A DNA stretch of 64,000 bases, taken from contig CAVQBR010000001.1 in NCBI GenBank assembly GCA_963710865.1, positions 48,430 to 112,429 on the forward strand, given 5' to 3'. Of the stretch, positions 14,393-58,094 are shown piece by piece (positions within the stretch are counted from its first letter, which is position 1; each line of letters begins with the position of its first letter). Under the pieces are notes generated by a model. It saw only the letters and a program-made list of their open reading frames with translations, did no database searches and was not told the origin of the DNA. Origin of the DNA: an uncultured bacterium. GTDB lineage: Bacteria > Babelota > Babeliae > Babelales > Babelaceae. The position numbers were made by a program, and so were the translations under genes.

Positions 14393-14416
14393 GCCCTCCG
14401 CTACTTAACGGAGGGC
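14393..14416 (-). terminator. hairpin immediately downstream of the beta-helix gene stop
   Basis: GCCCTCCG-CTACTTAA-CGGAGGGC (8-bp stem), 14 nt after the stop at 14431..14433. The paralogous copy at 19947..19971 keeps the pairing through compensatory changes. Confidence 0.55.
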
Positions 14417-14430
14417 GAGAATATCGAGGG

Positions 14431-19543: not shown

Positions 19544-19946
19544 CAGAAGCAGAGCTCCTTTTTTATCCTATCAAGCATTGGTATCTCATTTTGTATTTGA
19601 TTTATAAGTACATACCTGGCATCTTTTGGGGGTAGCTTAAGCTGCACTCAAAAGCGTAGCAAGCATAGCACAATAGAAATATTTTCGCAATCCAGCCCCT
19701 ATCTTAGCGCCATTAATTAATCAAAAAAAATGCGGTTCGCGCAAACTCGGATTCTCTTTTTTTTAAGATCTAATTCTCATTATCCTATAAATAAAGGAGA
19801 TCGTTATAGGGTTAATCTTGATCACTCTCAACTACGGCAGTTGTTAGCTTTCTGCTCGTCGGTAAAGTAGACTGAGGGGCGACGGATAAGAAAACCATGG
19901 GTAAAGTGTTTTCGAAGGAATCATAATGCCATCACCAAACGGAAAC

Positions 19947-19971
19947 GCCCTCTGCTATGTAAGCAGAGGGC
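19947..19971 (-). terminator. hairpin downstream of the second beta-helix gene
   Basis: GCCCTCTGC-TATGTAA-GCAGAGGGC. Relative to 14393..14416 the stem changes C to T and G to A at paired positions. Confidence 0.55.
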
Positions 19972-19985
19972 GCGAATATCGAAGG

Positions 19986-22900
19986 TTAGGGCGCAGGAAG
20001 CAACTGAGTTGCTTGAATTCCCCAACCATTTACAACGGCCGCCCATTCTCCGGTACCCCAAATAATTAAATCATTACTCGGATCTGGGGCTAAAGATGAT
20101 TCATCTCCCCAGCGTTGGCCAATGTTCCCATTAGCAGAATTATTTAATGGTCCAAAATTATACGGATTACTTGTATTATTGGTAATCAAAACAGGATCTC
20201 GTGTTGTGCCTAAGGGGTCTGTAGCCTTTCGTCCTGCATAAAAGACATTCGTATAGTCATTGTTACCAGAAACCGTCCCCCCAATAACGAGATCATCATT
20301 TTTATTAGTCATAATAGCTGGAACATAATAAAACTTAGGACTATCAGTTATAGTTGGATCAAAAACCGTCCCCCATTGTACCAGAGCAGGACAGGTTGTC
20401 TCTGTTTCAATGCCACATCCGTTTCCTGTTGGATCTCCAGTGAGATCGAATTGATACCAACGCGTCCCAACACGATCACCAGCTGGATTTCCTGCTCCAG
20501 TGCTATCAACTTGGATGTTGTGGCAGACATATAACTGCTTGTTTCGCACATGAGGGGCATTTAATTTGCTAAATGTTGTTTGTAAATACATAGCATTGAC
20601 ACCACCCAGTTCAAATGTATAGAGATTGCCCTTATGGGGAGCATTTGCTGGATCAGTATAATTAGGCACATCTAACAGAATCTGTTGCCCAAGAGTCGGT
20701 TGAGCCGATCCTGGGTTAAGAATACGAAAGAAGAAGAGTTGATTATAGCTACAGCACTCTGTCGGAGTACTAGGTGGTGGACAAAAGGGAACAATGTTTG
20801 GTAAACAAGGGTATTCAAATCCTACAGCATTTATCAGATACCCAAATTCTGCATGAGGATCAAAATTATCTGCCGGAGGAGTAAATCCAGAGATATTTGC
20901 TAATATTCCCGGGATTACGGTAAAGGCTGGAGAGGTATTACCTGTTATTATAGCGCTGTTAGGAATAATAAGCGCCGATGATCCTAAGAAGTTACCAGTA
21001 GTATCAAAGGTGTCTACGCTAATATACACAGCATTGGAATCAGTTGCTAATTGTTGATAATCAAGAATCGCAGGTCCATCGGCTATAATGTTTTGTGGAA
21101 CTAATTGTTCATTGGTAAATGTAGTAATCGTCCAGACAGTTTCCGGAGTTATTACACCAGAGTCACTCCAGGCAACAATAAGTTCAGTAGGACCACCAAC
21201 TGCGAAGTCAAAGTTTTCGCAACTAAATATCCAACGGTCAAGAAAGCGACTATAATCGATACGAACATCTGCGGCATTAGTTCCAAAAAAACTTGCCGAA
21301 TCAATATTAAGCACCCCGTCAGGCTGTCCGGTAATTTTATCAAAGCTACGAATGGCACCATAGGACATCAGAATATACTGCTTGGGGCCAACCCAACCAT
21401 TTAGATTCTGATTCCCTGCCACGAACGTGGGTTGCACAGTATTACTCACTGTGGCAGCTTCAAAGTTTAACCCAATTATTTGGGCGGGCTCAGAAAGTGA
21501 TTGCTGCAGAGACTTATCCATTACAGGAACCGAAAATCTTCCAGCTTGCGCTACCCTATGAGTCCCCGGAGTTTTTTGAATATTAAGTTTGCGCACGGGC
21601 CTCTGACGTTGAAAATCTTTAACCAAACCAAGAAATTGCTCTCTCGTCACGGGCTGGTCTCTTTGTATCTCTTTTTCGCTCATAGCAGGTATGCTTGAAG
21701 ATGACCCAATGCTATTGCCCGATGCCCCTCCAAGTCCACCGGCGAGACCAATCTGTACACCATTGCCTCCGTTTGGTACCGGTTGTGTACCCGTTATATC
21801 AGTGCCGATATAATTATTAGTAACTATATTGGCCGTAGTAGTAGGAGTACCATAGATGAGAACACCACCCCTCCCATTTCCTGAGATAACATTTTGCATA
21901 CCGGTACCTCCGACAGTGTTTTGGGCATCATTGAGCTCAATACCGTAGAAACTATTTGGAAGAGCCTTCGTTCCACTCACATCGGTACCAATCAAATTTC
22001 CCTGCATGGTATTAAGAATTGAGCCAAATTGCCCAACTATTCCTATATGGATGCCAGAGCCATTACCAGAGATTAGATTCCTTAACATAGTGTTTCCGAA
22101 TGCTGCATCCCCATCTATCTGTATACCCTTATTAGCATTGCCCAAAGGCTTCGTTCCTGTAACATCGGTACCTACATAATTTCGTTGAATAGTAGTCTGA
22201 GCACTATTTCTAATACGAATGCCGACCATGGAATGGCCTGAAACTATATTCCCTTCAAAATCATTCGGCCCCCCTACAATATCATTAAAATCAGTCCGTA
22301 AGCTCAGACCGATTTGGCTCATACCAAGCGAAATAGTACCTGTTCTATCAACACCAACATAATTATTTTGAATGATCGTTCCTTCGCTGAATGTTGAATT
22401 AATGCATCCGCCATCAACGTTGTAGGTATCAACTACATCCCATCCAAAACTGCCTGCTATAAGATTACGATCTGCAAAAAGAGGAGTACCAATCTGAATA
22501 TTAATACAATGTTTGCTACTCCCGCCTGACAAACCAATTCCGGCCCGATTCGCCATCACTCGTGTACCGCTTGCATCTGTCCCGATAAAACAGCCAATAA
22601 TCTTCACGCTGCTAACATTAGCATGGGAAGGATCAAGCAAAATACCACTCGCAAGCCATTGATTAATAACTAATCCTCGAACTATTGACCCATCAACAGA
22701 GGTGTTTGCAAGAGGAGCAAAATGCAATCCATTACCGGTAACGTACCCATCGCCCGTAGTATAGTTGTTACCATTAAGCACAATAGTAAGAACTGCATTA
22801 TCACCTCGAGCCCTCGTATTAACTGCTGAACCCGGTTGGGTATATCCATCGATAGTTACCTGTTGTGTAATAGAATCTAAATCCTGCACTGGCTGTATGG

Positions 22901-44750: not shown

Positions 44751-45392
44751 TTACATTGATCCCGGTTTCTTACCAATCTGCGCAAGCTCGGTAATAGTTT
44801 CTTCCATAGCAGACTCTGAAATACTAGGAGCACTTGGAGCTGCAGCTGCAGCCGCTGGAGTTACGGCAGAAACCGTTCGCCTGCTTCCTGCAACTGGCCT
44901 CAGTCCTACCGCTCCCGTAGTTGTTGGACGCGTCACTGATACGCCTGCTTGGCCGCTATAAGGCGCATAAGGCAGTGCCGCACCATGAGCTCGCATTTCC
45001 TGCTCTTTAAATTTCGGTTGATTTCTCAACTTTCCAATCTCTTTGGAGCTTCTTTCTATCACTGATCTCTCAGGAGTCTGGACCATCCATCCTCTTACTT
45101 CGCCACCAGATATAACGGGTACGGATAAAATACCGTACGTATACGTTCGAGATGGTGTTTCAAAAACAACCAATTCATCCTTATTAAAATCATGCCCAGG
45201 AAGGCCAAACTTGGCGAAGGTATTAATTTTAGCAGGATCAAGCTCAGGAAACTCCCGCGCTGTGTTCATTTCTCTTGCTACCTGACCAACATGCGTCAGA
45301 AATTCTTGCTTCGTCATTTGAGTAGTATCTACAGCTCGGATACTAGAACCTGCCAATAACCCGCAGGCTGCGATAAGTATAAGCTTATTCAT
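44751..45392 (-). CDS. secreted hypothetical protein (paralog of 43974..44525)
   Basis: ATG at 45392 with AAAGGAG upstream and signal peptide MNKLILIAACGLLAGSSIRA. MTKQEFLTHVGQVAR ... EFPELDPAKINTFAKFGLPGHDFNKDELV. Ala-rich C-terminal tail. Confidence 0.65.
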   Translation of the reverse strand: MNKLILIAACGLLAGSSIRAVDTTQMTKQEFLTHVGQVAREMNTAREFPELDPAKINTFAKFGLPGHDFNKDELVVFETPSRTYTYGILSVPVISGGEVRGWMVQTPERSVIERSSKEIGKLRNQPKFKEQEMRAHGAALPYAPYSGQAGVSVTRPTTTGAVGLRPVAGSRRTVSAVTPAAAAAAPSAPSISESAMEETITELAQIGKKPGSM

Positions 45393-45612
45393 AAGAAAAC
45401 TCCTTTTTATTATATGGAACCCTATTATTTTACATGGAGGCATCAGTTGTAGCTGAATTCTACCTCTATTATAACCATACTGCATTCAGGCTTGAAAAGT
45501 CAACGATTTGAAAAAAAAATTGCAAATCATTTCTAAATGTTCTCAGAGAAATTGAGGGTAATAAACAGGCATCAGCAAGAGATGTTTCTGAGGCAGACAA
45601 GTCTCGCAGACC

Positions 45613-46228
45613 TTACAATCCAGCTGATGACCTGACCACGCGAGTTAACTCATCAGCACCAATAATACCCGCATGTACTTTTGACAGACCATCATCAAGC
45701 ACTGTCGCCATACCTTCTTTGCGTGCTTGCTTACAAAGATCATCGTACGCAGGGTGGTCGACAAGTGCCTGTTTAAGGTCAGAAGAGAGCCTTAGAAACT
45801 CAAAGATACCGATTCTCCCTTTGCTCCTCGTGTAGTTACAAGTTGAGCAGCCTTTACTTACGAAGGTCCGCTCTAGTCCTTGTCTCTGTTCTTCAAGAGT
45901 CAGTTCCCGTTCAGAACGACAATCTAGGCAGAGGCGTCGAGCCAAGCGCTGAGCTAAGACCCCGGCCAACGGTCGCTGCTATAAGGTAGGGAGGAATGCC
46001 CATATCTATGAAATGTATAAAGGTCCCGGGGGCGTCGGAAGTATGGAGCGTACTAAGCACCAGATGACCAGTAATGGCAGCTTGTACAGCGACGTGCGCA
46101 GTCTCAGTATCACGTATTTCATCAATCATAATAATACCGGGATCTTGACGAAGAAAGGAACACAAGCCCGTGCAAAGGTCAATCCGATCTCCGAAGCAAC
46201 CTGCGTTATTCCTTCTATAGCGAGTCAA
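45613..46228 (-). pseudogene. frameshifted 3-prime fragment of a GspE/PilB-type ATPase gene (decayed copy of 52170..53333)
   Basis: ORFs 45613..45969 and 45911..46228 lie in two frames and align to the C-terminal roughly 200 aa of the intact gene ([37 protein letters not shown]; [12 protein letters not shown] ... GIIGADELTRVVRSSAGL). There is no N-terminal half and no Walker A. Confidence 0.85.
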
Positions 46229-46345
46229 GGCTAGATGCCTCCAGTTATCTTCTTGTATCAGATCACAAATTTTTATTGCATAATTCTGGACCTATTATAT
46301 ACTTCAGATTGAAGGGAGGCACTTGATCTACGAAAGGGCCTTGGG

Positions 46346-47380
46346 ATGTATTTGTCTTCCAGTTTTATACTATTCATATTCGTTTCAACCTTCGCACTTG
46401 ATGGATATTTTTCTAGCCGACACGTCTTTGTAGGACCAGATAAAAAAGTAATTTATCTATATGGAGATGATCATCGTGTATACGGCGATATCAACAAAAA
46501 GCAATTTGATGCAATGATGTATGTACTCCAAGAAGCAGAAAAATTGCCCAATACAAAACTAATGATATATATAGAATACCCACAGGCTAATTACATTGGA
46601 TACCGATACACTATACAATGCCCCATTAATGGTCTATTTTACTACACAAAAGATCTTAACTTGCAAAATAGTGTCCTCCAAGATTGTGATATACGAAAAG
46701 TTGTAAATGCAGCAAGAATTCTCCTTGAAATTAACCCAAAATTGACAGAAGAGCTCTGTTGTTCGGGCATACTCGATCCAGCATATGAAGGTCCTCGCAA
46801 ACAGTTTGCGATTGATTGTGTCAGAAATTTAGGTTGCCGAATTGATAGATTGACCTTTCAAGACATTCTCGACAGTTATGCTCAGTGGAAACAACAGTGC
46901 AAAATCTATCGGGATTCTTGGAGCTCTAAACGTATTAAGAAAGCTTTTGATGATCTCCTGATAGGGAATGAATGTGAGTACGATTGGTTTATAGAGAATC
47001 TGAACTCAGCTTCCATTGATCTCAATATGAAAGTACGTGACTATGCATGCCATTATTGGGAGACCTATGGATATGCAAATAGGGACTTAATTTTTTATCT
47101 CACAGGCGCCTTTTCAGATTTTCTTGATATGTACCTCATTAATAAAATTCTGCAACTACAAAGTGACTCATCTTTTAGCACCATTGTTATATGTGCAGGG
47201 GGCTCTCATACTAGCAATATTAGTGGGGCTCTCAAAGAACTAGGCTATAAGGAACTCGGGGAACCAATCGTTGGAAGCCCTACAGCTGAAAATATTATTA
47301 GTCGCGATAATATTCTGCAAATTCTCACCCCCCTTCCAGAATTGGAAGCGGCACAAGCTTCTCCATGTATCCTCATGTAA
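46346..47380 (+). CDS. hypothetical protein with hydrophobic N-terminus (paralogous N-terminal block to 4799..5224)
   Basis: 344-aa ORF with MYLSSSFILFIFVSTFALDG at the N-terminus. No family recognised. Confidence 0.6.
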   Translation: MYLSSSFILFIFVSTFALDGYFSSRHVFVGPDKKVIYLYGDDHRVYGDINKKQFDAMMYVLQEAEKLPNTKLMIYIEYPQANYIGYRYTIQCPINGLFYYTKDLNLQNSVLQDCDIRKVVNAARILLEINPKLTEELCCSGILDPAYEGPRKQFAIDCVRNLGCRIDRLTFQDILDSYAQWKQQCKIYRDSWSSKRIKKAFDDLLIGNECEYDWFIENLNSASIDLNMKVRDYACHYWETYGYANRDLIFYLTGAFSDFLDMYLINKILQLQSDSSFSTIVICAGGSHTSNISGALKELGYKELGEPIVGSPTAENIISRDNILQILTPLPELEAAQASPCILM

Positions 47381-47389
47381 GATTGAAAC

Positions 47390-47411
47390 TCTCTGGCTTA
47401 AAAGCCAGAGA
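47390..47411 (+). terminator. hairpin plus T-rich tail after 46346..47380
   Basis: TCTCTGGC-TTAAAA-GCCAGAGA followed by TTCTTGCTT, 10 nt after the stop. It lies in the 83-nt gap before the tnpB stop, so it could instead belong to the IS right end. Confidence 0.45.
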
Positions 47412-47463
47412 TTCTTGCTTCATCGGGTGAATCAACATTCATCCCTCCACAAGCTTTTGCAGG

Positions 47464-47875
47464 TCAAGCCTGCAGGAAGGATATTCCCGCCTTCCTTATG
47501 TTGAGTGCGGCATTCAGGTCACGATCCATGACCGAATCACACTGTGAACATTTATATGTCCTTTCCTTAAGCGGCATATCCTGCAATGCTCCACATGACG
47601 AGCACATTTTGCTGGACGGAAAAAATCTATCTACCACTATCAGTTTTTTTCCATACCACTCGCACTTATAAGAAAGAAGAGAAAAAAACCGACTCCAGGA
47701 GACGTCCGATATAGCAAAGGAGAGGCACCTATTTTTCACCATACCTCGCACATTCAAATTTTCAACTACGATAGCATCGTAGTTTTGCACGAGATGAGTT
47801 GTTAACTTGTGCAGAAAATCATCTCTTTGATTTCTTATATGCTCATGAAGTCTGCTGAACTTCTTTCTAATCTTA
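47464..47875 (-). CDS. tnpB: TnpB (IS200/IS605 OrfB) exon 2: RuvC-II, zinc finger, RuvC-III
   Basis: (L)KIRKKFSRLHEHIRNQRDDFLHKLTTHLVQNYDAIVVENLNVRGMVKN ... CSSCG ... CSQCDSVMDRDLNAALNI. The frame is open upstream of the track start (47790) as far as the intron boundary. Confidence 0.85.
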
Positions 47876-47960
47876 GTCGAGTAGTCGGGAATCGTCGGCT
47901 CGAGCTGACGATTCCCAACCCTCTAAGAACCGTACGTGAAGCTTTCGATTCATACGGCTC
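47876..47960 (-). ncRNA. group II intron domains V and VI
   Basis: Domain V is a 34-nt hairpin with the AGC triad and a GAAA tetraloop. Domain VI is a long stem with a single unpaired A (the A of GACTAC) at position -7 relative to the proposed 3-prime splice site. Confidence 0.8.
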
Positions 47961-49446
47961 AAGCCCTTGTAACGTCATTTCCTTCGTGACGCGGCAGCTT
48001 CTGGTTCGAGGTCTTCCTGCCTTCGAGATACGATTTCCAAGAGGGGTCATAGGGGTTGGCTTCGCCTTTTATCAGTCTATGCCGCTTGATCGGCACATCT
48101 GAGGCTTGGAACAACCTTATTGTCTTCTCGATTGCTCGCGTCACGTAGGTAGTTTGAAACACCCAGTTTCGACTTCCCATGCTTCCAAAGTATTTCTTTT
48201 TAATCCATCCTTTTGATTTATTAGGATGTCTTCGAAGACACCACCTCCACACCATTTCGAATATTCGATAATCCACATATGCGAATGTTCTTTTGCTACA
48301 GACATGCCTGTGATAGTTTGCCCATCCCCGGATAGCCTGGTTGAGCAACCTTATCAGCGTAGCTTGTTCTGATTGCCGATGTTGGTTGATGAGTTCTTGA
48401 ATATTGCGCAGGAACGTTAAGATATTCCTCTTGGAAGGCTTTGTGAGAGTTTTTCCTCCCTTATACCTTCGAAGGTTCTGCCCAAGAAAGTCAAACCCAT
48501 CGGAGATGTGCGTTATGAAGGTCTTCTCGGGAGAGAATACCAACCCACGTTCTCGCAGGAAATCCGCCACCACTGGCATGACTTGATTCTCAAGCAGTTC
48601 CTTAGAGATACCTGTGATTATAAAGTCATCACAGTACCGCACTAAATGGACCTTCGGACGTGGCGTCCGCGAAGGAAACAGCTTCCTTAGCAGGGCCTCT
48701 AATCCATTGAGAACAAAGTTTGCAAGGGTGGGGGATATGACTCCGCCCTGGGGCGTTCCCGCGTTTGCGTGGTAAAAGACGTTCTTCTCCATGTATCCCG
48801 CCTTGAGCCATTTTCGGAGCACTACCCTGTCCATTGGTGCATGTTTAAGTAGCCATTCGTGGCTGATGTTGTCAAAGCAACCTCGAATGTCAGCCTCCAT
48901 TAGATACACGGGCCCGTGCCTGCTTGCGAGTAGTAGGTGGCACCTATCCATTGCATCTGCTGTTGATCTGTATTTCCTGAACCCGTATGAGCTCGGATCT
49001 GACAGTGTTTCAACCACAGGGTCGAGCGCCAGGAGATAGAGCGCTTGCATTGCTCTGTCATGCATCGTCGGGATTCCCAATGGTCGCATTTTACCATTGG
49101 CTTTGGGAATGTACACACGTCGTAGCGGTTGGGGTTTATACCCTCTGCTACGCAGTTGCTTTATAGCCATGCACATTTGAAATGGGGTTACCCAGACCTC
49201 TCTATCAACACCAGGAGTTTTACTTCCCGAGTTGCCAGTTACACGTTCGACGGCTAATACCTTGCCGCTGTACGAGGTTGTAAGGAGGCGTTGCAAAGCT
49301 TTCACTTTGTTCCACTTTCCTTCCTCCACTGCCTTTACGATACGCGCTTGGATTCGATTCACAATCCGTTCGGCCTTATTCTTATCAATAGACTTCCAGC
49401 CCGTCGTTTTATGGAAAGCTGCACCAGTACCGCTAGATACCATCAT
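47959..49446 (-). CDS. group II intron-encoded reverse transcriptase/maturase (no obvious HNH endonuclease domain)
   Basis: 495 aa. RT blocks [47 protein letters not shown] and [11 protein letters not shown] (YxDD). Maturase X motif [10 protein letters not shown]. The C-terminus ends [17 protein letters not shown] with no Cys/His HNH motifs. The stop codon abuts domain V. Confidence 0.9.
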
Positions 49447-50019
49447 TTGCTATTGCCTCCTTAGTCGATTACCCAAGTTATCTCGTAATCTGGACCATAC
49501 GAAAAGTCTGCTCGCTTTCGCGCAGGATGATGTTTCAATCCTTATCCAGTCCATTACAGGCCGTCATTCGCTTTCTTTCGCGCTCCTCTACCTGCAGCTA
49601 ATTGCTTGCCTACAGGCTTACCACGTTCAGTATTCAGACCAGACCAGGTTAGGTTCTTCCTTTGCGCCGACGGCCATTATGTCTGCGAGGGGGGACAGAC
49701 TAGCCCAACCTCCGAGCCGTTCACCTTTTTTGGTCCAAGCATAACAGCATCTTTTGCTTGTTGCAAATAACGACGCTTAGTCAGAAGTTCACATACGTTA
49801 ACCTTACTGATCAACCCTAGATCCCGACCGCCTTGATGCTAGCAGTCAACACCTTTCCTTACAGGCCGGTATTCGCTTTCGCGAGGCTGCATTGTACCGA
49901 GAGCTTTGGACCGACAGGTTGCCCCGTGCGCCCATCTCGGTAGGGTACTATTGGCAGAACAATAGATTACATCATACTCCTTTTCGTGTAATAGCTCTGA
50001 ATACCGCTTCGTGTCGCAC

Positions 50020-50717
50020 AGTCTGTTTTTGCTACCTTTCTTGGTTTTTGAAAATTGCTTTTGCAGATACTTAACTTTAGAAAGTTGGGTTTTCAAAAAT
50101 TTAGGATTAGGGATCAGCTCACCTGAAGAAAGAGTAGCAAAGGTGAGGAGCCCAACATCGAGTCCAATTACATGCGATTCTCTGATTTCTACCTCAGGGA
50201 CTTCTTTTTCTATCTGACAGGTTAAATTAACATACCAATGATTGCGTTGCCGTTTAACTACAGCCTGTTTGATTGTCCCTTCAATTTCTCGAGATTTTAT
50301 AAAACGTACCCAACCTATTTTGGCTAGCAAAACATGATTATTATCAAGCTTTATATGTTGAGGAAATTTGATAGAATCATTAACGTATTTTTTTCTATAG
50401 CCGGGAAAGCCGTGGTCTCTTCCCTTTTTTCGTTCACGATAGAAACTCTTAATACCACGATCAAGATCTTTAATAGCCTGTTGAAGTGCTTGGGAGGGTG
50501 CATCAGCCAACCATTCAAAAAGAAACTTCAGCTCAGGAAGCTCATTTGCCATGTCAACATATGTTAGATAGTTTCCATCGCTCGCCGCTTCTTTTGCTCG
50601 ATTGAGCATATGGTTAAAAACAAATCGACTGCAACCAACTGCTTGAGCAATTTTTTCAAGCTGATCTTTGGTGAGCTTTAAACGATATTTAAATGTTATT
50701 ACAAGCGTCTTTGTCAT
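50020..50717 (-). CDS. tnpB: TnpB (IS200/IS605 OrfB) exon 1: N-terminal/WED-REC region and RuvC-I
   Basis: The likely start is the ATG at 50717 (MTKTLVITFKYRLKLTKDQLEKIAQAVGCSRFVFNHML, the typical OrfB N-terminus). RuvC-I is in HVIGLDVGLLTFATLS. The exon ends ... KKGSKNR + CT. The rest of track ORF 49839..50780 is read-through into intron RNA. Confidence 0.85.
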
Positions 50718-51037
50718 TGTTTTCTTTTGCTGAAATTTTCTTATATGCGATAAACTATCACCATATGAGACCAATGTCAACTCTCAGTTTAGACTATGAT
50801 TGATCTCATGATGACATTGACATACAGAAAATCCGATCCGGCCTTTTAGAAGGCTTAAATGCTAGGCTATTCAAAAAAAATGCCATATTTGCATTATTTA
50901 CCTGAATTGCGTGAAACGTATATAAGTTCTTAGCATATTCGGAATATCCATCCGATGCTCCAGCTGTGACAGACTCACGTGCCTTGAAAATACGATGGTT
51001 CATGCTCTCCAGTAACGCAATTTATGAATGTTTCTAC

Positions 51038-51083
51038 GTTTGATCTACAAGCAAAAACTTGAGGTTTTGCTTGTAGATCAAAC
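51038..51083. repeat. perfect 19-bp inverted repeat with an 8-nt loop
   Basis: GTTTGATCTACAAGCAAAA-ACTTGAGG-TTTTGCTTGTAGATCAAAC, about 320 nt upstream of the tnpB start. No T-tract follows on either strand. Confidence 0.7.
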
Positions 51084-51259
51084 AATGCACGGATGGATGA
51101 CCTTTCATCCCCGTCCTTAAAAGGTCCTTAAAAGGAACGGGGTTTTCAGGTCATAGAGAATAAAAAAGAAGCTTAAGAAGCTCTTGTTTTTTTGCAACAA
51201 TTTCTGATAGAATTAAAATAGCAATTAATATCAACTCTAATTCTAAAAAGGAAACGCTC

Positions 51260-52060
51260 ATGAAATTAAATAATACTCTGGTAGCTTTGCTCTACCTAAT
51301 GGCAGCTCCATCTCTACTTCAAGCAATGCAACCTCGCGAGCCTAGGCTTATAATAGTGAATAGCACGGGCACTACAATTAAGCTTTGGACAAAACAGGGT
51401 GAGCACAAGTCAACTTGGCACCTCGATCGAAGAAAACGTTCTGAGATACAATCACCGCAAACTCTCAATGAACTAGATGTAATCGCCCCAGGACGGGTAA
51501 TGGATACCCCATACCATATTATTAAAGACGTCAAAGCTAAACTCGCTGAGGCTCGGACTAGCAGAATGGATGTCCAAATAACCGTAACACCTTCCGCATC
51601 TACCTGGAATCCACTGGCAATCGCGTATGATCTAGTTGGAAGAACTACTCCTCAGCAGATATATAGGTATATCTACGAGTATTTTCCCCTGGTGAACGCA
51701 GCTATTGCCGAAAGAAGAGAAGTACTGCCTTATTATTTTCTCAACCTTCAAGCAAATGCTCCCTTAGCAAGTGTTACCAGTGCCTACGAGCAGGAAGTAC
51801 AGAAATTAAGCTCTTTGATTGCAAATAGCTCTTCCGACGATAAACGTTTTTATACGGATGCTCTCGAATTCGTCCAAATGGCTTATCAAGCTATCACAGG
51901 CGGAGCATCAAAGCTCAGTCAGTTCGCTAACTATGTTGAAGAAAAACTCGTTAATGCTCCAACGGCATACGAAGCTCATCGGCCAAGCCCATCTACTGCG
52001 ACAGCGTCAGCAGCAGTGTCAGCAGCGGCACCACCAGCGTCAGCAGCAGCACCACTCTAA
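51260..52060 (+). CDS. secreted hypothetical protein with an HPD-less J-like module and an Ala/Ser-rich tail
   Basis: Signal peptide MKLNNTLVALLYLMAAPSLLQA. YYFLNLQANAPLASVTSAYEQEVQKL ... FYTDALEFVQMAYQAI. The tail reads SPSTATASAAVSAAAPPASAAAPL. Confidence 0.65.
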   Translation: MKLNNTLVALLYLMAAPSLLQAMQPREPRLIIVNSTGTTIKLWTKQGEHKSTWHLDRRKRSEIQSPQTLNELDVIAPGRVMDTPYHIIKDVKAKLAEARTSRMDVQITVTPSASTWNPLAIAYDLVGRTTPQQIYRYIYEYFPLVNAAIAERREVLPYYFLNLQANAPLASVTSAYEQEVQKLSSLIANSSSDDKRFYTDALEFVQMAYQAITGGASKLSQFANYVEEKLVNAPTAYEAHRPSPSTATASAAVSAAAPPASAAAPL

Positions 52061-52169
52061 GAGAAAAATATTCGAGCCGGGCGGCGTTCGCTCGGCCTCG
52101 CACTTCGGAAAAAGATAGCAACTATACTGCTTCTGAGATAATCAGAACTAGCAGCCATGCGAAAATGCC

Positions 52170-53333
52170 TTACAATCCAGCTGATGACCTGACCACGCGA
52201 GTTAACTCATCAGCACCGATAATACCAGCATGTACTTTGGCCAGACCATCATCAAGCAATGTCGCCATACCTTCTTTGCGTGCTTGCTTACAAAGCTCAT
52301 CGTACGAAGGATGCTCGACAAGTGCCTGTTTCAGGTCAGAAGAGAGCTTTAGAAACTCAAAGATACCGATTCTCCCTTTGCTCCCCGTGTAGTTACAAGG
52401 TGCGCAGCCTTTACTTACAAAGGCCCGCTCTAGTCCTTGTCTCTGTTCTTCAAGAGTCAGTTCCCGTTCAGAACGACAAGCCATGCAAAGGCGCCGAGCC
52501 AAGCGTTGAGCTAACACCCCGGTAACGGTCGCTGCTATAAGATAAGGAGGAATGCCCATATCTATGAGACGTATAAGGGTCCCAGGGGCGTCGGAAGTAT
52601 GGAGCGTACTAAGCACCAGATGTCCCGTAAGGGCAGCTTGTACGGCAACGTGTGCAGTCTCAGTATCACGCATTTCACCAACCATAATAATATCGGGATC
52701 TTGACGCAGAAGGGAGCGCAAGCCCCGTGCAAAAGTCAATCCGATCTCAGGAGCAACCTGCGTTTGTGTTATTCCTTCTACAGCGTATTCAATCGGATCT
52801 TCCAAGGTAACGCTGTGCTTGTGAGGCGTATGAACCTGAGAGAGAAGTGCATGTAGAGTGGTCGTTTTACCACAGCCAGTTGGACCTGTTACGAGAAAGA
52901 AGCCCTGTGATGTTTCGCCTAGCTGAGCAAGGGCAGTACAAAGCTCAGGAGCAAGACCAAGTTCTGTCAAACGTAAGTTGGCTTTGGAGCGATCAAGAAG
53001 CCGCAGAACAACTGTTTCACCATAGAGGCTAGGAAAAGTAGAAACACGAATATCGAGCATCTGCCCAAAAAAGGTGCACGCGAATTTCCCATCTTGAGGA
53101 AGTCGGTGCTCGGTAATATTTAATCGTGCAAGGACTTTTATACGGGCAATAGTTTGAATACCCGGGACAACATCTATTGAACGCTCAGGAAAAAGGAGAC
53201 CATCAACACGAAACCGTACCCTAAATGCTTCCGGGTACGGTTCAACATGTATATCTGAAGCTCGAGCACTGAGCGCTCGCTTAATAAGCTCGTCGAGCAA
53301 CAAGGGAATATCGTGTATTACGCTAGCTTCCAT
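52170..53333 (-). CDS. GspE/PilB-family type II/IV secretion ATPase (short form, 387 aa)
   Basis: Walker A in GPTGCGKTT, Asp box in TLEDPIEY, Walker B in DPDIIMVGEMRD, His box in [12 protein letters not shown]-terminal tetracysteine CMACRS ... CAPCNYTG. Confidence 0.9.
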   Translation of the reverse strand: MEASVIHDIPLLLDELIKRALSARASDIHVEPYPEAFRVRFRVDGLLFPERSIDVVPGIQTIARIKVLARLNITEHRLPQDGKFACTFFGQMLDIRVSTFPSLYGETVVLRLLDRSKANLRLTELGLAPELCTALAQLGETSQGFFLVTGPTGCGKTTTLHALLSQVHTPHKHSVTLEDPIEYAVEGITQTQVAPEIGLTFARGLRSLLRQDPDIIMVGEMRDTETAHVAVQAALTGHLVLSTLHTSDAPGTLIRLIDMGIPPYLIAATVTGVLAQRLARRLCMACRSERELTLEEQRQGLERAFVSKGCAPCNYTGSKGRIGIFEFLKLSSDLKQALVEHPSYDELCKQARKEGMATLLDDGLAKVHAGIIGADELTRVVRSSAGL

Positions 53334-53662
53334 GCTAAAATAAATCCAAAGAATGCCGCCAATGATTCAATTTTATGAGTACGAACCCAGTCTACAGCAT
53401 TTGTGAAAACACTCTGTAACGTGCTATCAGCTGAGAGGCCCAAAAGAGATTTTAAGGTACTATAATTCACAGTAAGAACCTGCAAATAATCAAGAGCCCA
53501 GAGAGCTAACGCTGCGCCTATGAGAAGCAAAAAGAATAATCGACCGCCATACTTTACGAGAAAGCCAAAAATAAAGCCGGCTATGAGATAGCCCGCCATC
53601 TCAACATACCAGCTTGCAGGTCTGTCAAAGCTCTTTGTAACTTTTTCAAAAAAGCCTTCCAT
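53318..53662 (-). CDS. small membrane protein, FUN14-like
   Basis: 114 aa. AGYLIAGFIFGFLVKYGGRLFFLLLIGAALALWALDYLQVLTVNY resembles the FUN14 glycine-zipper TM pair. The stop overlaps the GspE-like gene start by 16 nt. Confidence 0.5.
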   Translation of the reverse strand: MEGFFEKVTKSFDRPASWYVEMAGYLIAGFIFGFLVKYGGRLFFLLLIGAALALWALDYLQVLTVNYSTLKSLLGLSADSTLQSVFTNAVDWVRTHKIESLAAFFGFILAWKLA

Positions 53663-54782: not shown

Positions 54783-54876
54783 TTTTTTCCATTAAGAATT
54801 AAACATATAGTATTATACTCTACCACATTTGTGATTGCACACAACTTTTTTTAGCTCCTTGCCGACGACACCCCCT

Positions 54877-55758
54877 CTAATGCACTAGCTGTAAACAGCG
54901 ACTCCAACGTATCTTCTTCCAAAAAGCGAGTGGATTTTTAATAAGATCCACAAACCACCAGGATTCAGTGCTATCCATCGACCAAATCCTAAACACTATC
55001 CTCCCATGAATTAATTTTCCATCTAAGGGACCCCACTCTCGTGAATCTCCGCTGCCCAGTCTATTGTCTCCCATAACCCAGTACTGATTTTCACCAAGAG
55101 TAATATCAAAAATATCTGTACCTGAATGTACAGGCGTTCCTGGATATAAAATTGTTTGAGGTTCCATAGTTTGCGCATTTAAGATAATAAGATGCGGATT
55201 TATTTTATAAAAAGGTTGCTTATCCCAGGGAACGTTAGGATCAAATGAAAGACTGTCATACGTACGCTCTTGCGAATCACGACTGTGCTCGTGCGGTAAT
55301 GATCGCCAGACATAGATAAGTGGATACTTATTAATATAGGCAGACTCATCTAGTTTCTTACCATTTACATAGACCACAGGATGACCATCTTCAATTACTC
55401 CCTTAACTCTGTCTCCCGGCAGTCCGATAATACGTTTCGTCCAATTTGAGATGTGCCACGATGCATAGCGCTGCCACACATTGACCGCAGAATTGGTTGA
55501 GTATGGATAGCGAGGCTCATTAAACGCTATTATTTCTCCACGCTGAGGTTTTCTCACCCAATATGAAAGCTTGTCAGCAAAGAATCGTTCACCGATGAGT
55601 AAGGTAGTTTCCATAGAACCGCTCGGAACCTGGTACAAACCAAAGCCAAAGGTACGTATAACAAAAGCGATAGGTAAGATGACAAAAATCAATTCGAACG
55701 GTACCCGAACGAAAGCTACATCGTGCCATTTACCTAAAATCCGCTTTAATAGTTTCAT
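54877..55758 (-). CDS. lepB: signal peptidase I (copy 1)
   Basis: Catalytic Ser box YQVPSGSMETTL, box D/E GDNRLGSGDSREWGPL, N-terminal TM anchor. About 90 percent aa identity by eye to 56202..57080. Confidence 0.9.
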   Translation of the reverse strand: MKLLKRILGKWHDVAFVRVPFELIFVILPIAFVIRTFGFGLYQVPSGSMETTLLIGERFFADKLSYWVRKPQRGEIIAFNEPRYPYSTNSAVNVWQRYASWHISNWTKRIIGLPGDRVKGVIEDGHPVVYVNGKKLDESAYINKYPLIYVWRSLPHEHSRDSQERTYDSLSFDPNVPWDKQPFYKINPHLIILNAQTMEPQTILYPGTPVHSGTDIFDITLGENQYWVMGDNRLGSGDSREWGPLDGKLIHGRIVFRIWSMDSTESWWFVDLIKNPLAFWKKIRWSRCLQLVH

Positions 55759-55903
55759 TTTAAACCTTTTCAGAGTACTTACAATTCCGCTCTTTTCTTC
55801 CGAGCTACCTCTCGTGCCGTCTTATATCTTTTATTCTTCTTTTTACCATCTTACTCACTAATGAATCAGATTGCAACAGGAGAGTAAAAATGAATATACC
55901 GCC

Positions 55904-56128
55904 TTAATAAAAACAATGCAAGAAAAAAAGGGGATTAACGGCTTTGCCCCTCTTATCTATTTCAAAATGTACCTGGAAACCGGAGCCACCTCTCTTACTT
56001 TTACGTAGAAAACCGGTAGCTCCACCACGGCAAGCATGGTCGACGACCACTCCTTTTTGCCCTTCCAACACAAATCTTTTATCAAGATGGGCATACCTTG
56101 GTTTAAACATATCAGTCCGGGTGATCAT
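55904..56128 (-). pseudogene. 3-prime fragment of an M23 peptidase gene (decayed duplicate of the end of 57234..58094)
   Basis: FKPRYAHLDKRFVLEGQKGVVVDHACRGGATGFLRKSKRGGSGFQVHFEIDKRGKAVNPLFFL aligns to FKTRYAHLDKIFVSVGQKVEVGDHIGRVGATGFVRKSKRGGSGSHLHFEIYKRGKAVNPLFFL. The HLH metal-binding motif has become QVH, and there is no N-terminal part. Confidence 0.75.
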
Positions 56129-56201
56129 ACTCTACTTCCCATAGTCTGCAGACTGGCAGGTGCCGGATATTCATGATGTACACACATTTTTTTGCACCTT
56201 T

Positions 56202-57080
56202 TTAATGCACAGGCTGTAAACAGCGGCTCCAGCGAACTTTTTTCCAAAACGCAAGTGGGTTTTTAATAAGATCGACAAACCACCATGATTCAGAACTATC
56301 CATAGACCAAATCCTAAACACTATCCTCCCGTGAATTAACTTTCCATCTAACGGGCCCCAGTCTCGTGAATCAGAGCTCCCTAATCTATTATCTCCCATG
56401 ACCCAATATTGATTTTCACCAAGAGTGATATCAAAAATATCTACCCCTGAGTGAGCAGGAGTTCCTGGATACAAGATTGTCTGTGGCTCCATAGTTTGTG
56501 GATTTAATATAATAAGATGGGGGTCTATTCGATAAAAAGGTTGCTTATCCCACGGTACCGCAGGATCAAATGAGCGACTATCATAATTGCGCTCTTGCGA
56601 ACGACGATGTTCATACGGTAATGATCGCCAGACATAGATAAGGGGATACTTATTAATATAGGCAGACTCATCTAATTTCTTACCATTTACGTAGATGACA
56701 GGATGACCGTCTTCAATCACTCCTTTTACTCTATCTCCTGGCAGTCCAATAACACGTTTCGTCCAATTTGAGATGTTCCATGATGCATAGCGCTGCCAGA
56801 GATTGACCGTAGAATTGGTTGCGTAGGGATAGCGAGGTTCATTAAAAGCTATTATTTCCCCACGTTGTGGCTTTCTCATCCAATACGAAAGCTTATCTGC
56901 AAAGAATCGCTCACCTACGAGCAAGGTTGTTTCCATAGAACCGGTAGGAACTTGGTATAAACCAAAGCCAAAAGTACGTATCACAAAAGCGATAGGTAAG
57001 ATAACAAAAATCAGTTCGAACGCTCCTCGAACAAGAGCTACATCGTGCCATTTACCTAAAATCCGCTTAAATAATTTCAT
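56202..57080 (-). CDS. lepB: signal peptidase I (copy 2)
   Basis: YQVPTGSMETTL and GDNRLGSSDSRDWGPL. Same architecture as copy 1. Confidence 0.9.
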   Translation of the reverse strand: MKLFKRILGKWHDVALVRGAFELIFVILPIAFVIRTFGFGLYQVPTGSMETTLLVGERFFADKLSYWMRKPQRGEIIAFNEPRYPYATNSTVNLWQRYASWNISNWTKRVIGLPGDRVKGVIEDGHPVIYVNGKKLDESAYINKYPLIYVWRSLPYEHRRSQERNYDSRSFDPAVPWDKQPFYRIDPHLIILNPQTMEPQTILYPGTPAHSGVDIFDITLGENQYWVMGDNRLGSSDSRDWGPLDGKLIHGRIVFRIWSMDSSESWWFVDLIKNPLAFWKKVRWSRCLQPVH

Positions 57081-57233
57081 CTTATGCCTTTCTAAATGAT
57101 TACAAGTAAGCTCTTTTCTTCCAAGCTTCCTCTCTTGCTATCTTCTTTCATTTGTTCTTCTTTATACCATCTTACTGCTTATGAAATAGAATACATGAGG
57201 AGCGTAAAAATGAATATACCGCCTTACTCTAAA

Positions 57234-58094
57234 CTATGCAAGAAAAAAAAGAGGATTAACAGCCTTACCCCTCTTATATATCTCAAAATGTAAGTGAGAA
57301 CCCGAGCCACCCCTCTTACTTTTACGTACAAAACCGGTCGCTCCAACACGGCCAATATGGTCGCCGACCTCTACTTTTTGCCCTACCGATACGAATATTT
57401 TATCAAGATGAGCATACCTCGTCTTAAACGTACCGGTATGAGTGATCATAATATAATTGCCGTAACCGGTTGCGTAACAAGCCTCGGTAACCACCCCTTC
57501 CCCAGCAGCATGGACTATTGTCCCTTTCTGCGCGGCCATATCTACTCCAGCATGAAACGCAATGCGACCATTAGGATTTCTTCGTGGACCGTAGAGCGAG
57601 CTTACCCAGAAGTCCCGTGGTTCAACCGGCCAGGAAAACCGTGCTTCCTTGCGCACCTTTTTCCATTCAGCCAATGCTTTTGCCGGCTTAACCTTCATAC
57701 CACCTGCTATCATTTGAGCACCGTTTCCCACAAGTGGTTCTGTGGTATAGGTCCTTTTTTGTTTCAAGCGGCCAGGTTTTCTTCTTGGGCGAGGAGGCAC
57801 AGCCCGAAGGACACCCCTGCGTCGTTTACTCTTTTTACGAACAGTAGTTCTCTGGGGCTTCACTTCCTCTTGAGGGGAAGTTTCAGCCTCGATGTGATAT
57901 AAAGGAGAGGCATCAAAGGTTATCAGTTTCTGATGTTGTAAAAAATCTGAACGGTGTATATATGAAGAAGAATTTTGTACTGAAACTTCAGGTAAATCAG
58001 TCGGACGGGAAAAATGATATTCTGCTACAAGACAACCGGTTGCTACGAGGAAGGAGCTTGCCCAGGCACACATCATACTTTGCTGAATTGTCAT
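57234..58094 (-). CDS. M23-family (LytM-type) metallopeptidase, probable lipoprotein
   Basis: HAGVDMAAQKGTIVHAAGEGVV ... GYGNYIMITH ... YAHLDKI ... GDHIGRVGATG ... SHLHFE contains the HxxxD and HxH motifs. The N-terminus FLVATGC is lipobox-like. It starts 4 nt after the batD stop. Confidence 0.85.
   Translation of the reverse strand: MTIQQSMMCAWASSFLVATGCLVAEYHFSRPTDLPEVSVQNSSSYIHRSDFLQHQKLITFDASPLYHIEAETSPQEEVKPQRTTVRKKSKRRRGVLRAVPPRPRRKPGRLKQKRTYTTEPLVGNGAQMIAGGMKVKPAKALAEWKKVRKEARFSWPVEPRDFWVSSLYGPRRNPNGRIAFHAGVDMAAQKGTIVHAAGEGVVTEACYATGYGNYIMITHTGTFKTRYAHLDKIFVSVGQKVEVGDHIGRVGATGFVRKSKRGGSGSHLHFEIYKRGKAVNPLFFLA

What the first reader, a model, noticed from the sequence alone, without database searches (positions are those of the whole stretch)
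45610..52800. A roughly 5.9-kb island bracketed by roughly 620-bp direct repeats of the 3-prime half of the GspE-like ATPase gene
- **Layout:** the intact ATPase gene (52170..53333, minus) is followed downstream, about 5.9 kb away, by a second copy of only its 3-prime roughly 620 nt (45613 to about 46230). This copy is now frameshifted and roughly 10 percent diverged at protein level by eye.
- **Repeat edges:** similarity starts at the same CCTTACAATCC just beyond both stop codons.
- **Island content:** a hydrophobic-N-terminus hypothetical gene, the tnpB::intron element, and a secreted J-like protein.
- **Interpretation:** a full gene, then cargo, then a displaced decaying 3-prime end is what integration leaves when an element carries its own replacement 3-prime end of the target gene. 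No integrase is present, so either the recombinase is lost or acts in trans, or the structure arose by duplication plus insertion.
Basis: partly seen in the sequence, partly recalled or inferred. Interest (0 to 1): 0.6.

Follow-up and report, generated by a model that had tools for sequence, protein, structure and literature searches.

The report
Relocated gene pair beside duplicated gene-end
In an uncultured amoeba-associated bacterium (Dependentiae), two of the cell's own secreted-protein genes were copied from their old chromosomal site to just behind a pilus/secretion ATPase gene. This duplicated the last 618 bases of that gene, so the result is a rearrangement scar (one of about ten in this genome), not a mobile island that has lost its integrase.

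Summary
A 612/618-nt direct repeat (92% identity) of the ATPase 3' end brackets 5,945 bp, and the distal copy is a frameshifted pseudogene. A sister-species contig has the empty site, with the synteny break exactly at the repeat edges.

The mobile-island reading fails on four counts:
- **Cargo is resident.** ORF344 and ORF266 form a lineage-specific two-gene cassette. Their orthologues (72% and about 61% aa) lie between an ankyrin gene downstream of PPDK and VKOR in the sister species. At that locus this genome keeps only stubs.
- **Cargo is as old as the core.** Cargo dS against the sister (0.75-0.77) falls within the range of neighbouring core genes.
- **No foreign gene end.** The 5' and 3' halves of the ATPase gene are equally diverged from the sister (dS 0.95 and 0.91).
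- **No recombinase.** The genome holds one Xer-like tyrosine recombinase, no serine recombinase and one broken TnpA.

The middle 3.8 kb is a later insertion: tnpB split by a splice-competent group II intron, present as four 99% copies.

About ten loci in this genome show [quoted passage not shown]. One of them (LeuRS-transaldolase) is confirmed as an insertion by relatives.

Best reading: recombinase-independent duplication plus insertion, followed by loss of the donor copy. Whether this took one step or two is unresolved.

The parts
44751..45485 (-). Native downstream neighbour (secreted protein with an Ala-rich tail, no Pfam family). It is contiguous with repeat copy A, just as its homologue is contiguous with the intact ATPase gene in the sister contig.
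   Evidence: L024 9486-11743 aligns to window 46207-43936; the flank downstream of copy A matches the flank downstream of the L024 ATPase (p <= 0.001); no Pfam hit.
45611..46222 (-). Repeat copy A: an orphan, frameshifted copy of ATPase codons 183-387 plus the stop and 2 nt. It is a decaying pseudogene fragment.
   Evidence: Polarisation against two outgroups gives 19 changes derived in A (15 at codon positions 1 or 2) and 6 derived in B (4 at position 3).
46223..47381 (+). Left part of the relocated cassette. It comprises about 120 nt of upstream region (including a piece of an older ORF344-family 3' remnant) and ORF344 (46346..47380; 344 aa, hydrophobic N-terminus, no Pfam family).
   Evidence: L047 1495-2621 aligns to window 46263-47388 at 78.9%; orthologue P0121 at 72% aa; dN/dS 0.22; five paralogues in the same genome. 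AlphaFold model is low-confidence (pLDDT 46).
47382..51166 (-). A 3,785-bp IS200/IS605-type element without tnpA, inserted in the ORF344-ORF266 spacer. One of four 99.2% identical copies in the genome.
   Evidence: copies at C2:638484-642255, 260261-264030 and 1449280-1453049, with shared ends and different flanks; the sister spacer is uninterrupted.
47464..47875 (-). tnpB exon 2
   Evidence: joining the exons gives an open 369-aa TnpB that is collinear with an intron-less paralogue at C2:~1210000.
47876..50019 (-). Group II intron (2,144 nt, GTGCG...GAC) in the same orientation as tnpB. Its reverse transcriptase/maturase ORF is at 47959..49446.
   Evidence: RF02012 (103 bits) and RF00029 (55 bits). 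RVT_1, RVT_N and GIIM; intron boundaries.
50020..50717 (-). tnpB exon 1 (HTH_OrfB_IS605 and OrfB_IS605 domains). The element's left end, with a 19-bp perfect palindrome, lies further upstream at 50718-51166.
51167..52167 (+). Right part of the relocated cassette. It holds the rest of the spacer, ORF266 (51260..52060; signal peptide, Ala-rich tail, no Pfam family), its terminator hairpin, and about 45 nt of uncertain origin next to the ATPase stop codon.
   Evidence: L047 2625-3469 aligns to window 51179-52022 at 71.6%; 147/241 aa identical, dN/dS 0.34; terminator shared with the sister and with the C2 stub; the 45-nt stretch.
52168..52785 (-). Repeat copy B: the functional 3' end of the ATPase gene.
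52170..53333 (-). Intact 387-aa GspE/PilB-type (T2SSE) ATPase gene. Its start overlaps the end of the FUN14-like gene (53318..53662).
   Evidence: the HU - FUN14-like - ATPase order is conserved in many relatives.

Best explanation
**What the island is.** It is the cell's own DNA moved within the lineage, not a mobile element. A two-gene cassette (ORF344 then ORF266, secreted proteins of a lineage-specific multi-copy family) once sat, together with an adjacent ankyrin gene, between the PPDK and VKOR genes. A copy of about 2.1 kb of that locus came to lie just behind the stop codon of the GspE/PilB-type ATPase gene. At the same time, or in a closely linked step, the last 618 nt of the ATPase gene were duplicated.

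**What happened to the copies.** The gene-proximal repeat copy (B) stays under purifying selection as part of the gene. The distal copy (A) is still joined to the native downstream DNA and decays as a promoter-less pseudogene fragment. The donor copy of the cassette then became redundant and was reduced by two deletions to stubs. The net result is a gene relocation. Much later, a 3.8-kb tnpB element already carrying a group II intron inserted into the spacer between the two cargo genes.

**Mechanism.** No site-specific recombinase is involved. The process is illegitimate, recombinase-independent duplication plus insertion, filtered by selection so that the ATPase gene stays intact. I hold two routes about equally likely:
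- (i) One step. Either a replication template switch (copy through the gene end, jump to the donor locus, jump back 618 nt upstream), or a single homologous crossover of a circularised chimeric fragment.
- (ii) Two steps. A tandem duplication of the gene end creates neutral DNA. The cassette then lands in it, and deletions erode the redundant DNA down to the selected stop codon.

**Shown.** The repeat, the pseudogene decay of copy A, the empty site in the sister, the resident origin of the cargo and the donor stubs, the later IS insertion, the lack of recombinases, and the recurrence of the same layout elsewhere in this genome.

**Inferred.** The order and coupling of the duplication and the insertion, and the molecular route.
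For: - **Empty site.** Sister contig L024 aligns through the ATPase gene to window 52168. From its ATPase 3' end it also aligns to 46207-43936, so its gene is followed directly by the native neighbours.
- **Cargo orthologues elsewhere.** In L046, L047 and L048 the order is PPDK - Ank710 - ORF344 orthologue - ORF266 orthologue - VKOR. The flanks of that locus match own-genome C2:1520253-1515305 and C2:1515147-1508577. The cassette itself matches only the island.
- **Donor stub.** The 158-bp gap at C2 still holds the last ~50 nt of ORF344, ~45 nt of the spacer, the last ~45 nt of ORF266 and its terminator.
- **Ages.** dS against the sister is 0.77 for ORF344 and 0.75 for ORF266, against 0.56-1.13 for five neighbouring core genes. 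The ATPase 5' half gives 0.95 and the 3' half 0.91. Copy A against copy B gives 0.167.
- **Direction of decay.** Copy A carries 19 derived changes, mostly at codon positions 1 and 2. Copy B carries 6, mostly at position 3.
- **Recombinases.** One Phage_integrase hit (305 aa), no Resolvase hit, one broken Y1 transposase.
- **IS is separate and later.** Four copies at 99.2% identity, with the flanks of this copy reconstituting the sister spacer.
- **Recurrence.** A genome scan finds nine to ten loci with an intact gene plus a downstream orphan copy of its 3' end. The mirror class (5' end upstream) has four.
- **Second locus confirmed.** LeuRS and transaldolase are directly adjacent in seven relatives, up to order level. 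Here they are separated by 5.8 kb of inserted paralogous secreted-protein genes plus LeuRS 3' fragments.
- **Background.** The genome is rich in local duplications: 421 nearby pairs of at least 250 bp.
Against: - **Breakpoints.** The exact breakpoints in the donor cannot be fixed, because donor and island are now only 66-82% alike in the stubs. Microhomology and the order of events are therefore untestable here.
- **Timing.** The stubs are no closer to the island than to the sister (74% against 76% overall). The copy may be older than the 8% divergence of the repeat suggests, or it may have come from a close relative rather than from this chromosome.
- **Fewer replacements than expected.** If copy A had been neutral ever since the split, about 40 non-synonymous differences would be expected. 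Only 27.5 are seen, which leaves room for some divergence while both copies were functional.
- **Stop-codon junction.** The junction sits 2 nt past the stop, and within about 5 nt of the stop in 5 of 10 such loci. A one-step random event does not predict this.
Confidence: 0.7

Rival explanations
1. First reader's reading. The island is the remnant of an integrative element that targets the ATPase gene and carries a replacement 3' end. Its integrase has been lost or acts in trans. Copy A is the displaced original end.
For: - The layout is the same as e14 / phage 21 at icd.
- The sister has an empty site and the repeat edges coincide with the synteny break.
- The repeat ends 2 nt after the stop codon.
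Against: - No integrase in the island.
- The genome has only one Xer-like tyrosine recombinase and no serine recombinase.
- The cargo consists of vertical orthologues of a sister-species locus, and stubs remain at that locus in this genome.
- The two halves of the ATPase gene are equally diverged from the sister.
- About ten different genes in this genome carry the same scar, which would require about ten target-specific elements.
Confidence: 0.06
2. Import from a closely related strain. A donor strain already had the cassette behind its ATPase gene. A fragment consisting of that gene's 3' end plus the cassette entered by transformation or a similar route. It integrated by a homologous crossover in the ATPase gene at one end and an illegitimate join (or circle integration) at the other. 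Part of the 8% divergence between the repeat copies therefore pre-dates the event.
For: - dN/dS between the copies is 0.38, and there are fewer replacement changes than pure decay of copy A predicts.
- The stubs are not clearly closer to the island than to the sister.
- Earlier notes on other Dependentiae proposed this route. These are leads only.
Against: - Copies A and B are each other's closest relatives (92%, against 80-82% to the sister), so any donor was nearly conspecific.
- The 3' half of the gene shows no excess divergence from the sister.
- The model only moves the original insertion step into another strain.
- All four conspecific assemblies have the same structure.
Confidence: 0.13
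3. Old structure. The repeat-cargo-repeat arrangement pre-dates the split from the sister species. Gene conversion keeps the repeats similar, and the sister lost the insert by recombination between its repeats.
For: - Recombination between the repeats would restore a perfect empty site.
- The sister has one lepB copy where this genome and the more distant L025 have two, so such losses do occur.
- The ~45 nt past the stop of copy B match the native flank only at 67% (p about 0.05).
Against: - Differences are spread along the whole repeat with no clear conversion tracts.
- The frameshifts and the 6-bp deletion in copy A have not been converted.
- The sister keeps the cassette at PPDK/VKOR, so an extra reciprocal loss would be needed.
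Confidence: 0.08
4. Assembly artefact: the two repeat copies, or the join across the 3.8-kb multi-copy IS, are mis-assembled.
For: One contig from another sample (L070) leaves this IS copy into the flank of a different IS copy.
Against: - The copies differ by 8% and by indels.
- Both novel junctions recur at 99.5-100% in independent assemblies.
- The two IS flanks reconstitute the sister's ORF344-ORF266 spacer.
Confidence: 0.01

Closest known systems
Prophage e14 / phage 21 integrated in the E. coli icd gene, leaving the icdC pseudo-end (from general knowledge; not fetched here)
   Same: An intact gene, then inserted DNA, then an orphan copy of the gene's 3' end. The inserted side keeps the gene whole.
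   Different: - No integrase, att core or phage genes here.
- The cargo is resident DNA of the same lineage.
- The functional 3' end shows no separate ancestry.
- The repeat is long (618 nt), and the same scar occurs at about ten unrelated genes in one genome.
Campbell-type insertion-duplication: single homologous crossover of a circular DNA that carries a piece of the target, as used in insertion-duplication mutagenesis (general knowledge)
   Same: - It produces exactly repeat-insert-repeat.
- It needs no dedicated recombinase.
- Only fragments that include the gene's 3' end leave the gene intact.
   Different: It requires a circular chimera of two unlinked chromosomal pieces, the ATPase 3' end and the PPDK/VKOR-locus cassette. 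There is no evidence for such a molecule.
Segmental duplication followed by loss of the parent copy (gene relocation by duplication and differential loss); compare 'Transposed genes in Arabidopsis are often associated with flanking repeats' (PMC2869330; title and abstract seen, paper not read)
   Same: A non-transposon gene block appears at a new locus flanked by direct repeats, while the old locus decays.
   Different: This case is bacterial. The flanking repeats are a duplicated piece of the target gene rather than of the moved segment.
Replication template switching (long-distance template switching / FoSTeS / MMBIR models of duplication with templated insertion; general knowledge)
   Same: It predicts a duplication whose junction holds a copied stretch from elsewhere, with everything copy-based and no recombinase.
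   Different: Microhomology at the joints cannot be checked here because of later divergence. Only the youngest similar locus (C1:144625-148791) shows a possible 6-nt microhomology, CAAACA.
IS200/IS605-family tnpB-only elements and bacterial group II introns (for the 3.8-kb middle part)
   Same: - TnpB domains, subterminal hairpins and multiple near-identical copies.
- The intron has an RT/maturase ORF, domains D1-D4 and V-VI, and GUGCG...AY ends.
   Different: The intron sits inside tnpB in the sense orientation, and the composite element is what has multiplied (four copies). The only tnpA in the genome is broken.

Membership tests
Integrative element / genomic island in the 3' end of a protein gene with a replacement gene end (e14-icd type) | Site-specific recombinase encoded in the element or available in trans | tested here: not met
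   None in the island. Across the genome there is one Phage_integrase hit (305 aa, Xer-like), no Resolvase hit and one broken Y1 transposase.
Integrative element / genomic island in the 3' end of a protein gene with a replacement gene end (e14-icd type) | Direct repeats consisting of the gene's 3' end, one within the intact gene and one orphan, bracketing the insert | tested here: met
Integrative element / genomic island in the 3' end of a protein gene with a replacement gene end (e14-icd type) | Cargo of separate (foreign) ancestry that travels as a unit | tested here: not met
   - Orthologues lie at PPDK/VKOR in the sister, with dS equal to core genes.
- Stubs of the donor copy remain in this genome.
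- The IS part is an independent, later insertion.
Integrative element / genomic island in the 3' end of a protein gene with a replacement gene end (e14-icd type) | The functional 3' end has a different history from the 5' part of the gene | tested here: not met
   dS against the sister is 0.946 for the 5' half and 0.914 for the 3' half. Copies A and B are mutually closest.
Integrative element / genomic island in the 3' end of a protein gene with a replacement gene end (e14-icd type) | Empty site in relatives, with edges at the repeat boundaries | tested here: met
   L024.
Campbell-type insertion-duplication | Insert flanked by direct copies of one continuous piece of the target, with both outer junctions native | tested here: met
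   The gene's 5' part is contiguous with copy B. Copy A is contiguous with the native downstream DNA, as in the sister.
Campbell-type insertion-duplication | Circular intermediate that carries the target fragment | not testable with these tools
Simple tandem segmental duplication | The whole unit (repeat plus spacer) is repeated head to tail | tested here: not met
   Native downstream DNA follows copy A, not a second copy of the island. Apart from the IS copies, the spacer matches elsewhere only at the ~60-nt donor stub on C2.
IS200/IS605-family tnpB element (part 47382-51166) | TnpB with HTH_OrfB_IS605 / OrfB_IS605 domains, conserved ends, multiple copies with different flanks | tested here: met
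IS200/IS605-family tnpB element (part 47382-51166) | Y1 (HUH) TnpA transposase in cis | tested here: not met
   Absent from the element. The only genomic Y1_Tnp match is interrupted by a stop or frameshift.
Bacterial group II intron (part 47876-50019) | Ribozyme domains, RT/maturase ORF, GUGCG...AY ends, and exon joining that restores the host ORF | tested here: met
   - Rfam RF02012 and RF00029.
- RVT_N, RVT_1 and GIIM.
- Boundaries and an open 369-aa spliced TnpB.

The most novel reading that the evidence does not exclude
In Dependentiae, and perhaps in other amoeba-associated intracellular bacteria, secreted and ankyrin-type effector-like genes are gained and moved mainly by a recombinase-independent insertion-duplication process. 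This process lands at the 3' ends of conserved housekeeping genes. It leaves 'gene - cargo - orphan 3' end' scars (about ten in this 1.95-Mb genome), with the joint often trimmed or targeted to within a few bases of the stop codon. Duplicated gene ends would then be the lineage's regular landing pads for turnover of the effector repertoire.
Probability: 0.3. Interest if true: 0.6.

Novelty: new variant of a known kind. Interest (0 to 1): 0.4.

Why it matters
- **A caution for island-finding.** The rule 'direct repeats of a gene end plus cargo means an integrated mobile element' fails here. The same footprint arises when a genome reshuffles its own genes without any integrase.
- **A rare traced source.** The origin of the cargo could be followed to an intact locus in the sister species and to stubs in this genome.
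- **Genome dynamics.** The scar recurs about ten times in one small genome. This suggests that duplication-linked insertion behind housekeeping genes is a regular way for these intracellular bacteria to rearrange and expand their secreted-protein repertoire.
- **Element biology.** The nested tnpB::group II intron that multiplies as one unit is a tidy example of an intron riding on, and not disabling, a guide-RNA nuclease element.

Tried and rejected
- **Similarity past the stop codon.** The flanks downstream of the two copies are not significantly alike over 113 nt (p = 0.29). Over the first ~50 nt the match is marginal (18/27, p about 0.05). I left this as unexplained.
- **Apparent half-ATPase in G001.** A hit covering residues 183-386 is simply cut by the end of a 4.7-kb contig.
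- **Source of the youngest similar insert.** For the ankyrin gene at C1:145524-148322 the best database relative is only 40% identical, so nothing could be learned.
- **Structure of ORF344.** The AlphaFold model from a 3-sequence alignment had pLDDT 46. That is too poor for a fold search, so none was run.
- **Ancestral home of the cassette.** The distant G003 pair is not at a PPDK/VKOR locus, which is uninformative.
- **Microhomology at the joints of this island.** Donor and island are too diverged to tell.
- **Literature.** Two searches found no description of this scar type in bacteria.
- **Empty-site or variant contigs in the same species.** All four conspecific assemblies have the same junctions.

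Full report
**1.

The repeat finder and direct alignment show two direct copies: A at 45611-46222 and B at 52168-52785, spaced 6557 nt apart. They are 92.1% identical (563/611).

Copy B is the last 205 codons, the stop and 2 further bases of an intact 387-aa ATPase gene at 52170..53333 on the minus strand (Pfam T2SSE, E = 2e-120).

Copy A has a 6-bp deletion and two single-base indels that break the frame. The repeat occurs only twice in the 1.95-Mb genome.

Similarity stops 2 nt past the stop codon, and the flanks beyond show no significant likeness (p = 0.29).

Both new junctions are present at 99.5-100% identity in independent assemblies of four other samples or runs. The structure is therefore real and appears fixed in the sampled population.

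**2. Organism and setting**

Database relatives of the ATPase are labelled Candidatus Dependentiae. The window lies on a 188-kb contig of a two-contig, 1.95-Mb assembly.

The gene order upstream (HU, a FUN14-like membrane protein, the ATPase) is conserved in many relatives. The downstream side varies.

**3. Empty site**

The closest ATPase relatives are on contig L024 (ENA, 81% aa) and contig L025 (JGI, 77% aa).

L024 aligns continuously from the bat operon to the ATPase stop codon (window 56143-52168, 84%). From the ATPase 3' end it also aligns into window 46207-43936. In that sister species the gene is therefore followed directly by the homologues of 44751..45485 and its neighbours.

The synteny break thus falls exactly at the repeat edges. 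The flank downstream of copy A is the native one.

**4. Which copy decays**

I polarised the differences with L024 and L025. Where both outgroups agree, 19 changes are derived in A (15 at codon positions 1 or 2) and 6 in B (4 at position 3).

Overall the substitutions fall 18/6/26 on codon positions 1/2/3, with dN/dS = 0.38 and dS = 0.167. A is a neutral pseudogene fragment and B is under selection.

**5. The cargo is resident, not foreign**

ORF344 and ORF266 have no Pfam family. They belong to a family of adjacent gene pairs found at several loci of this genome, namely C2:502540-504178 and a cluster at C2:1240645-1248076. A same-genus relative also has such a pair.

The closest homologue of ORF344 (P0121, 72% aa) lies on three sister-species contigs in the order PPDK - 710-aa ankyrin protein - ORF344 orthologue - 253-aa ORF266 orthologue - VKOR.

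The flanks of that locus match this genome at C2:1520253-1515305 and C2:1515147-1508577 (86-91%). The cassette itself matches only the island: window 46263-47388 at 78.9% and 51179-52022 at 71.6%.

The 158-bp gap at C2 still contains four remnants:
- the last ~50 nt of ORF344;
- ~45 nt of the inter-gene spacer;
- the last ~45 nt of ORF266;
- its terminator hairpin.

The lineage therefore had the cassette at PPDK/VKOR. A copy now sits behind the ATPase gene, and the old copy was deleted down to stubs.

**6. Ages**

| Comparison | dS | dN/dS |
|---|---|---|
| ORF344 vs sister | 0.77 | 0.22 |
| ORF266 vs sister | 0.75 | 0.34 |
| Five neighbouring core genes vs sister | 0.56-1.13 | - |
| ATPase 5' half vs sister | 0.946 | - |
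| ATPase 3' half vs sister | 0.914 | - |
| Repeat copy A vs copy B | 0.167 | 0.38 |

The cargo is as old as the genome's split from the sister. The functional 3' end has no separate history. The repeat is younger than the species split, unless gene conversion has homogenised it.

**7. No recombinase**

The island encodes none. Across the whole genome there is one Phage_integrase-family gene (305 aa, Xer-like), no serine recombinase, and a single Y1 transposase gene that is broken.

**8. The middle 3.8 kb is a later, separate insertion**

Window 47382-51166 is one of four 99.2% identical copies of the same element, with shared ends and unrelated flanks. Its two flanks join to give the sister's uninterrupted spacer.

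The element is a tnpB gene interrupted by a 2,144-nt group II intron (47876-50019, GTGCG...GAC) in the sense orientation. The intron has an RT/maturase ORF and matches Rfam models for D1-D4 and for domains V-VI.

Joining the exons gives an open 369-aa TnpB that is collinear with an intron-less paralogue. The composite element, not the bare IS, is what multiplied.

**9. The same scar recurs in this genome**

A whole-genome self-comparison finds 421 nearby repeat pairs of at least 250 bp.

A rule-based scan finds nine to ten loci in which an intact gene is followed by inserted gene(s) and then an orphan copy of its own 3' end. The mirror class (a 5'-end copy lying upstream) has four.

The genes concerned are:
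- this ATPase;
- a DAO-type oxidoreductase;
- a CCA-adding/poly(A)-polymerase-like enzyme (repeat 99.2% identical);
- RNase HII;
- enolase;
- LeuRS;
- GroEL;
- a thioredoxin-reductase fusion;
- an ATP-cone/Mrr protein;
- one unassigned protein.

These assignments come, except that enolase, LeuRS and GroEL were assigned by eye from the protein sequences. Where I examined them, the inserts encode signal-peptide or ankyrin-repeat proteins.

For LeuRS I checked relatives. LeuRS and transaldolase are directly adjacent (10-110 nt apart) in seven relatives, up to order level. Here they are separated by 5.8 kb holding two paralogous secreted-protein genes and LeuRS 3' fragments. In that locus the duplicated piece runs into the transaldolase 5' end, and the copy next to LeuRS has lost the transaldolase start codon through a 38-nt deletion.

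One locus (C2:1648404-1656746) looks like a tandem duplication of two convergent gene ends with extra DNA in one unit.

Earlier notes of this scan report the same layout in other Dependentiae and in a chlamydial genome. I treat those as leads only.

**10. Mechanism**

Firmly supported: a copy of resident DNA was inserted behind the ATPase gene, the gene's 3' end was duplicated, no site-specific recombinase took part, and the donor copy then decayed.

Not settled: how these steps were linked.

- **One-step routes.** These are a replication template switch, or a single crossover of a circular chimera. They fit the absence of leftover DNA at the joints. They also fit the very young CCA-enzyme locus (3 differences in 359 nt), whose joint shows a possible 6-nt microhomology.
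- **Two-step route.** A tandem duplication of a gene end creates neutral DNA, the cargo lands in it, and deletions erode the redundant DNA. This fits four things:
  - the genome's many plain tandem duplications, including the lepB/M23 one nearby;
  - the erosion seen at the LeuRS locus;
  - the excess of 3'-end scars over 5'-end scars (promoter-less fragments are harmless);
  - the joint lying within about 5 nt of the stop codon in 5 of 10 loci, because erosion can proceed only as far as selection on the gene allows.

I hold the two routes about equally likely. Import of the 3' end plus cassette from a near-conspecific strain, and an older structure kept similar by gene conversion, remain minor possibilities. 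The evidence for those is the dN/dS of 0.38, the stub identities, and the weak 67% match just past the stop of copy B.

**11. Verdict**

The scar itself is ordinary.

Three things add some value:
- the traced origin of the cargo;
- the recurrence at about ten housekeeping genes in one small genome;
- the intron-bearing tnpB element that spreads as a unit.

Noticed in passing
window 47382-51166; genome C2:638484-642255, C2:260261-264030, C2:1449280-1453049: A tnpB gene carrying a sense-oriented, apparently splice-competent group II intron exists as four 99.2% identical 3.77-3.79-kb copies. The composite has therefore transposed after the intron went in, although the only tnpA (Y1) gene in the genome is broken.
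   Followed up: partly
genome C2:1515147-1515305 (outside the window): Decayed donor locus between PPDK and VKOR. It holds only the 3' end of ORF344, part of the spacer, the 3' end of ORF266 and the terminator. The 710-aa ankyrin gene present in the sister species is also missing.
   Followed up: yes
genome C1:114617-119107, C1:144620-149840, C2:69612-71672, C2:603594-606568, C2:857568-865809, C2:942344-945609, C2:1648404-1656746, C2:1677403-1681637: Further loci with the layout 'intact housekeeping gene, inserted gene(s) (secreted or ankyrin-repeat proteins where examined), orphan copy of the gene's 3' end'. In half of them the joint lies within about 5 nt of the stop codon.
   Followed up: partly
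L055 (G008), L058 (G011), L067 (G010) versus L054, L056, L057, L060, L063, L064, L068: LeuRS and transaldolase are adjacent in most relatives, up to order level. In three other genomes they are separated by about 1 kb, so the spot behind LeuRS may be a recurrent insertion site.
   Followed up: no
window 54870-57520; L024 6103-7374; L025 399-2736: The tandem lepB (+ M23 3' fragment) duplication of this genome is also present in the more distant L025 but is single-copy in the closer L024. Either L024 lost a copy by recombination between the repeats, or the duplication arose twice.
   Followed up: no
L070 = ERZ25039481 contig_51766 (282 kb), positions 11037-21035: In another sample the contig runs from copy A and ORF344 through the IS, then exits into the flank of IS copy C2:638484-642255 (peptidase C11, UDG, NusA, IF-2) instead of ORF266. 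This is either an IS-mediated rearrangement in that population or a chimeric join at the 3.8-kb repeat.
   Followed up: partly
L024 about 9950-10083: The sister's ATPase gene carries a 1-nt insertion that truncates the called protein to 345 aa. This is either a sequencing error or a real frameshift.
   Followed up: no
genome C2:1244486-1248076: Three near-identical (95%) tandem copies of an ORF344-family gene sit next to two ORF266-family genes, which indicates ongoing amplification of this cassette family.
   Followed up: no
window 52118-52167: About 45 nt between the ATPase stop codon and the recognisable end of the relocated cassette are of uncertain origin. They match the native downstream flank only marginally (18/27).
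   Followed up: partly
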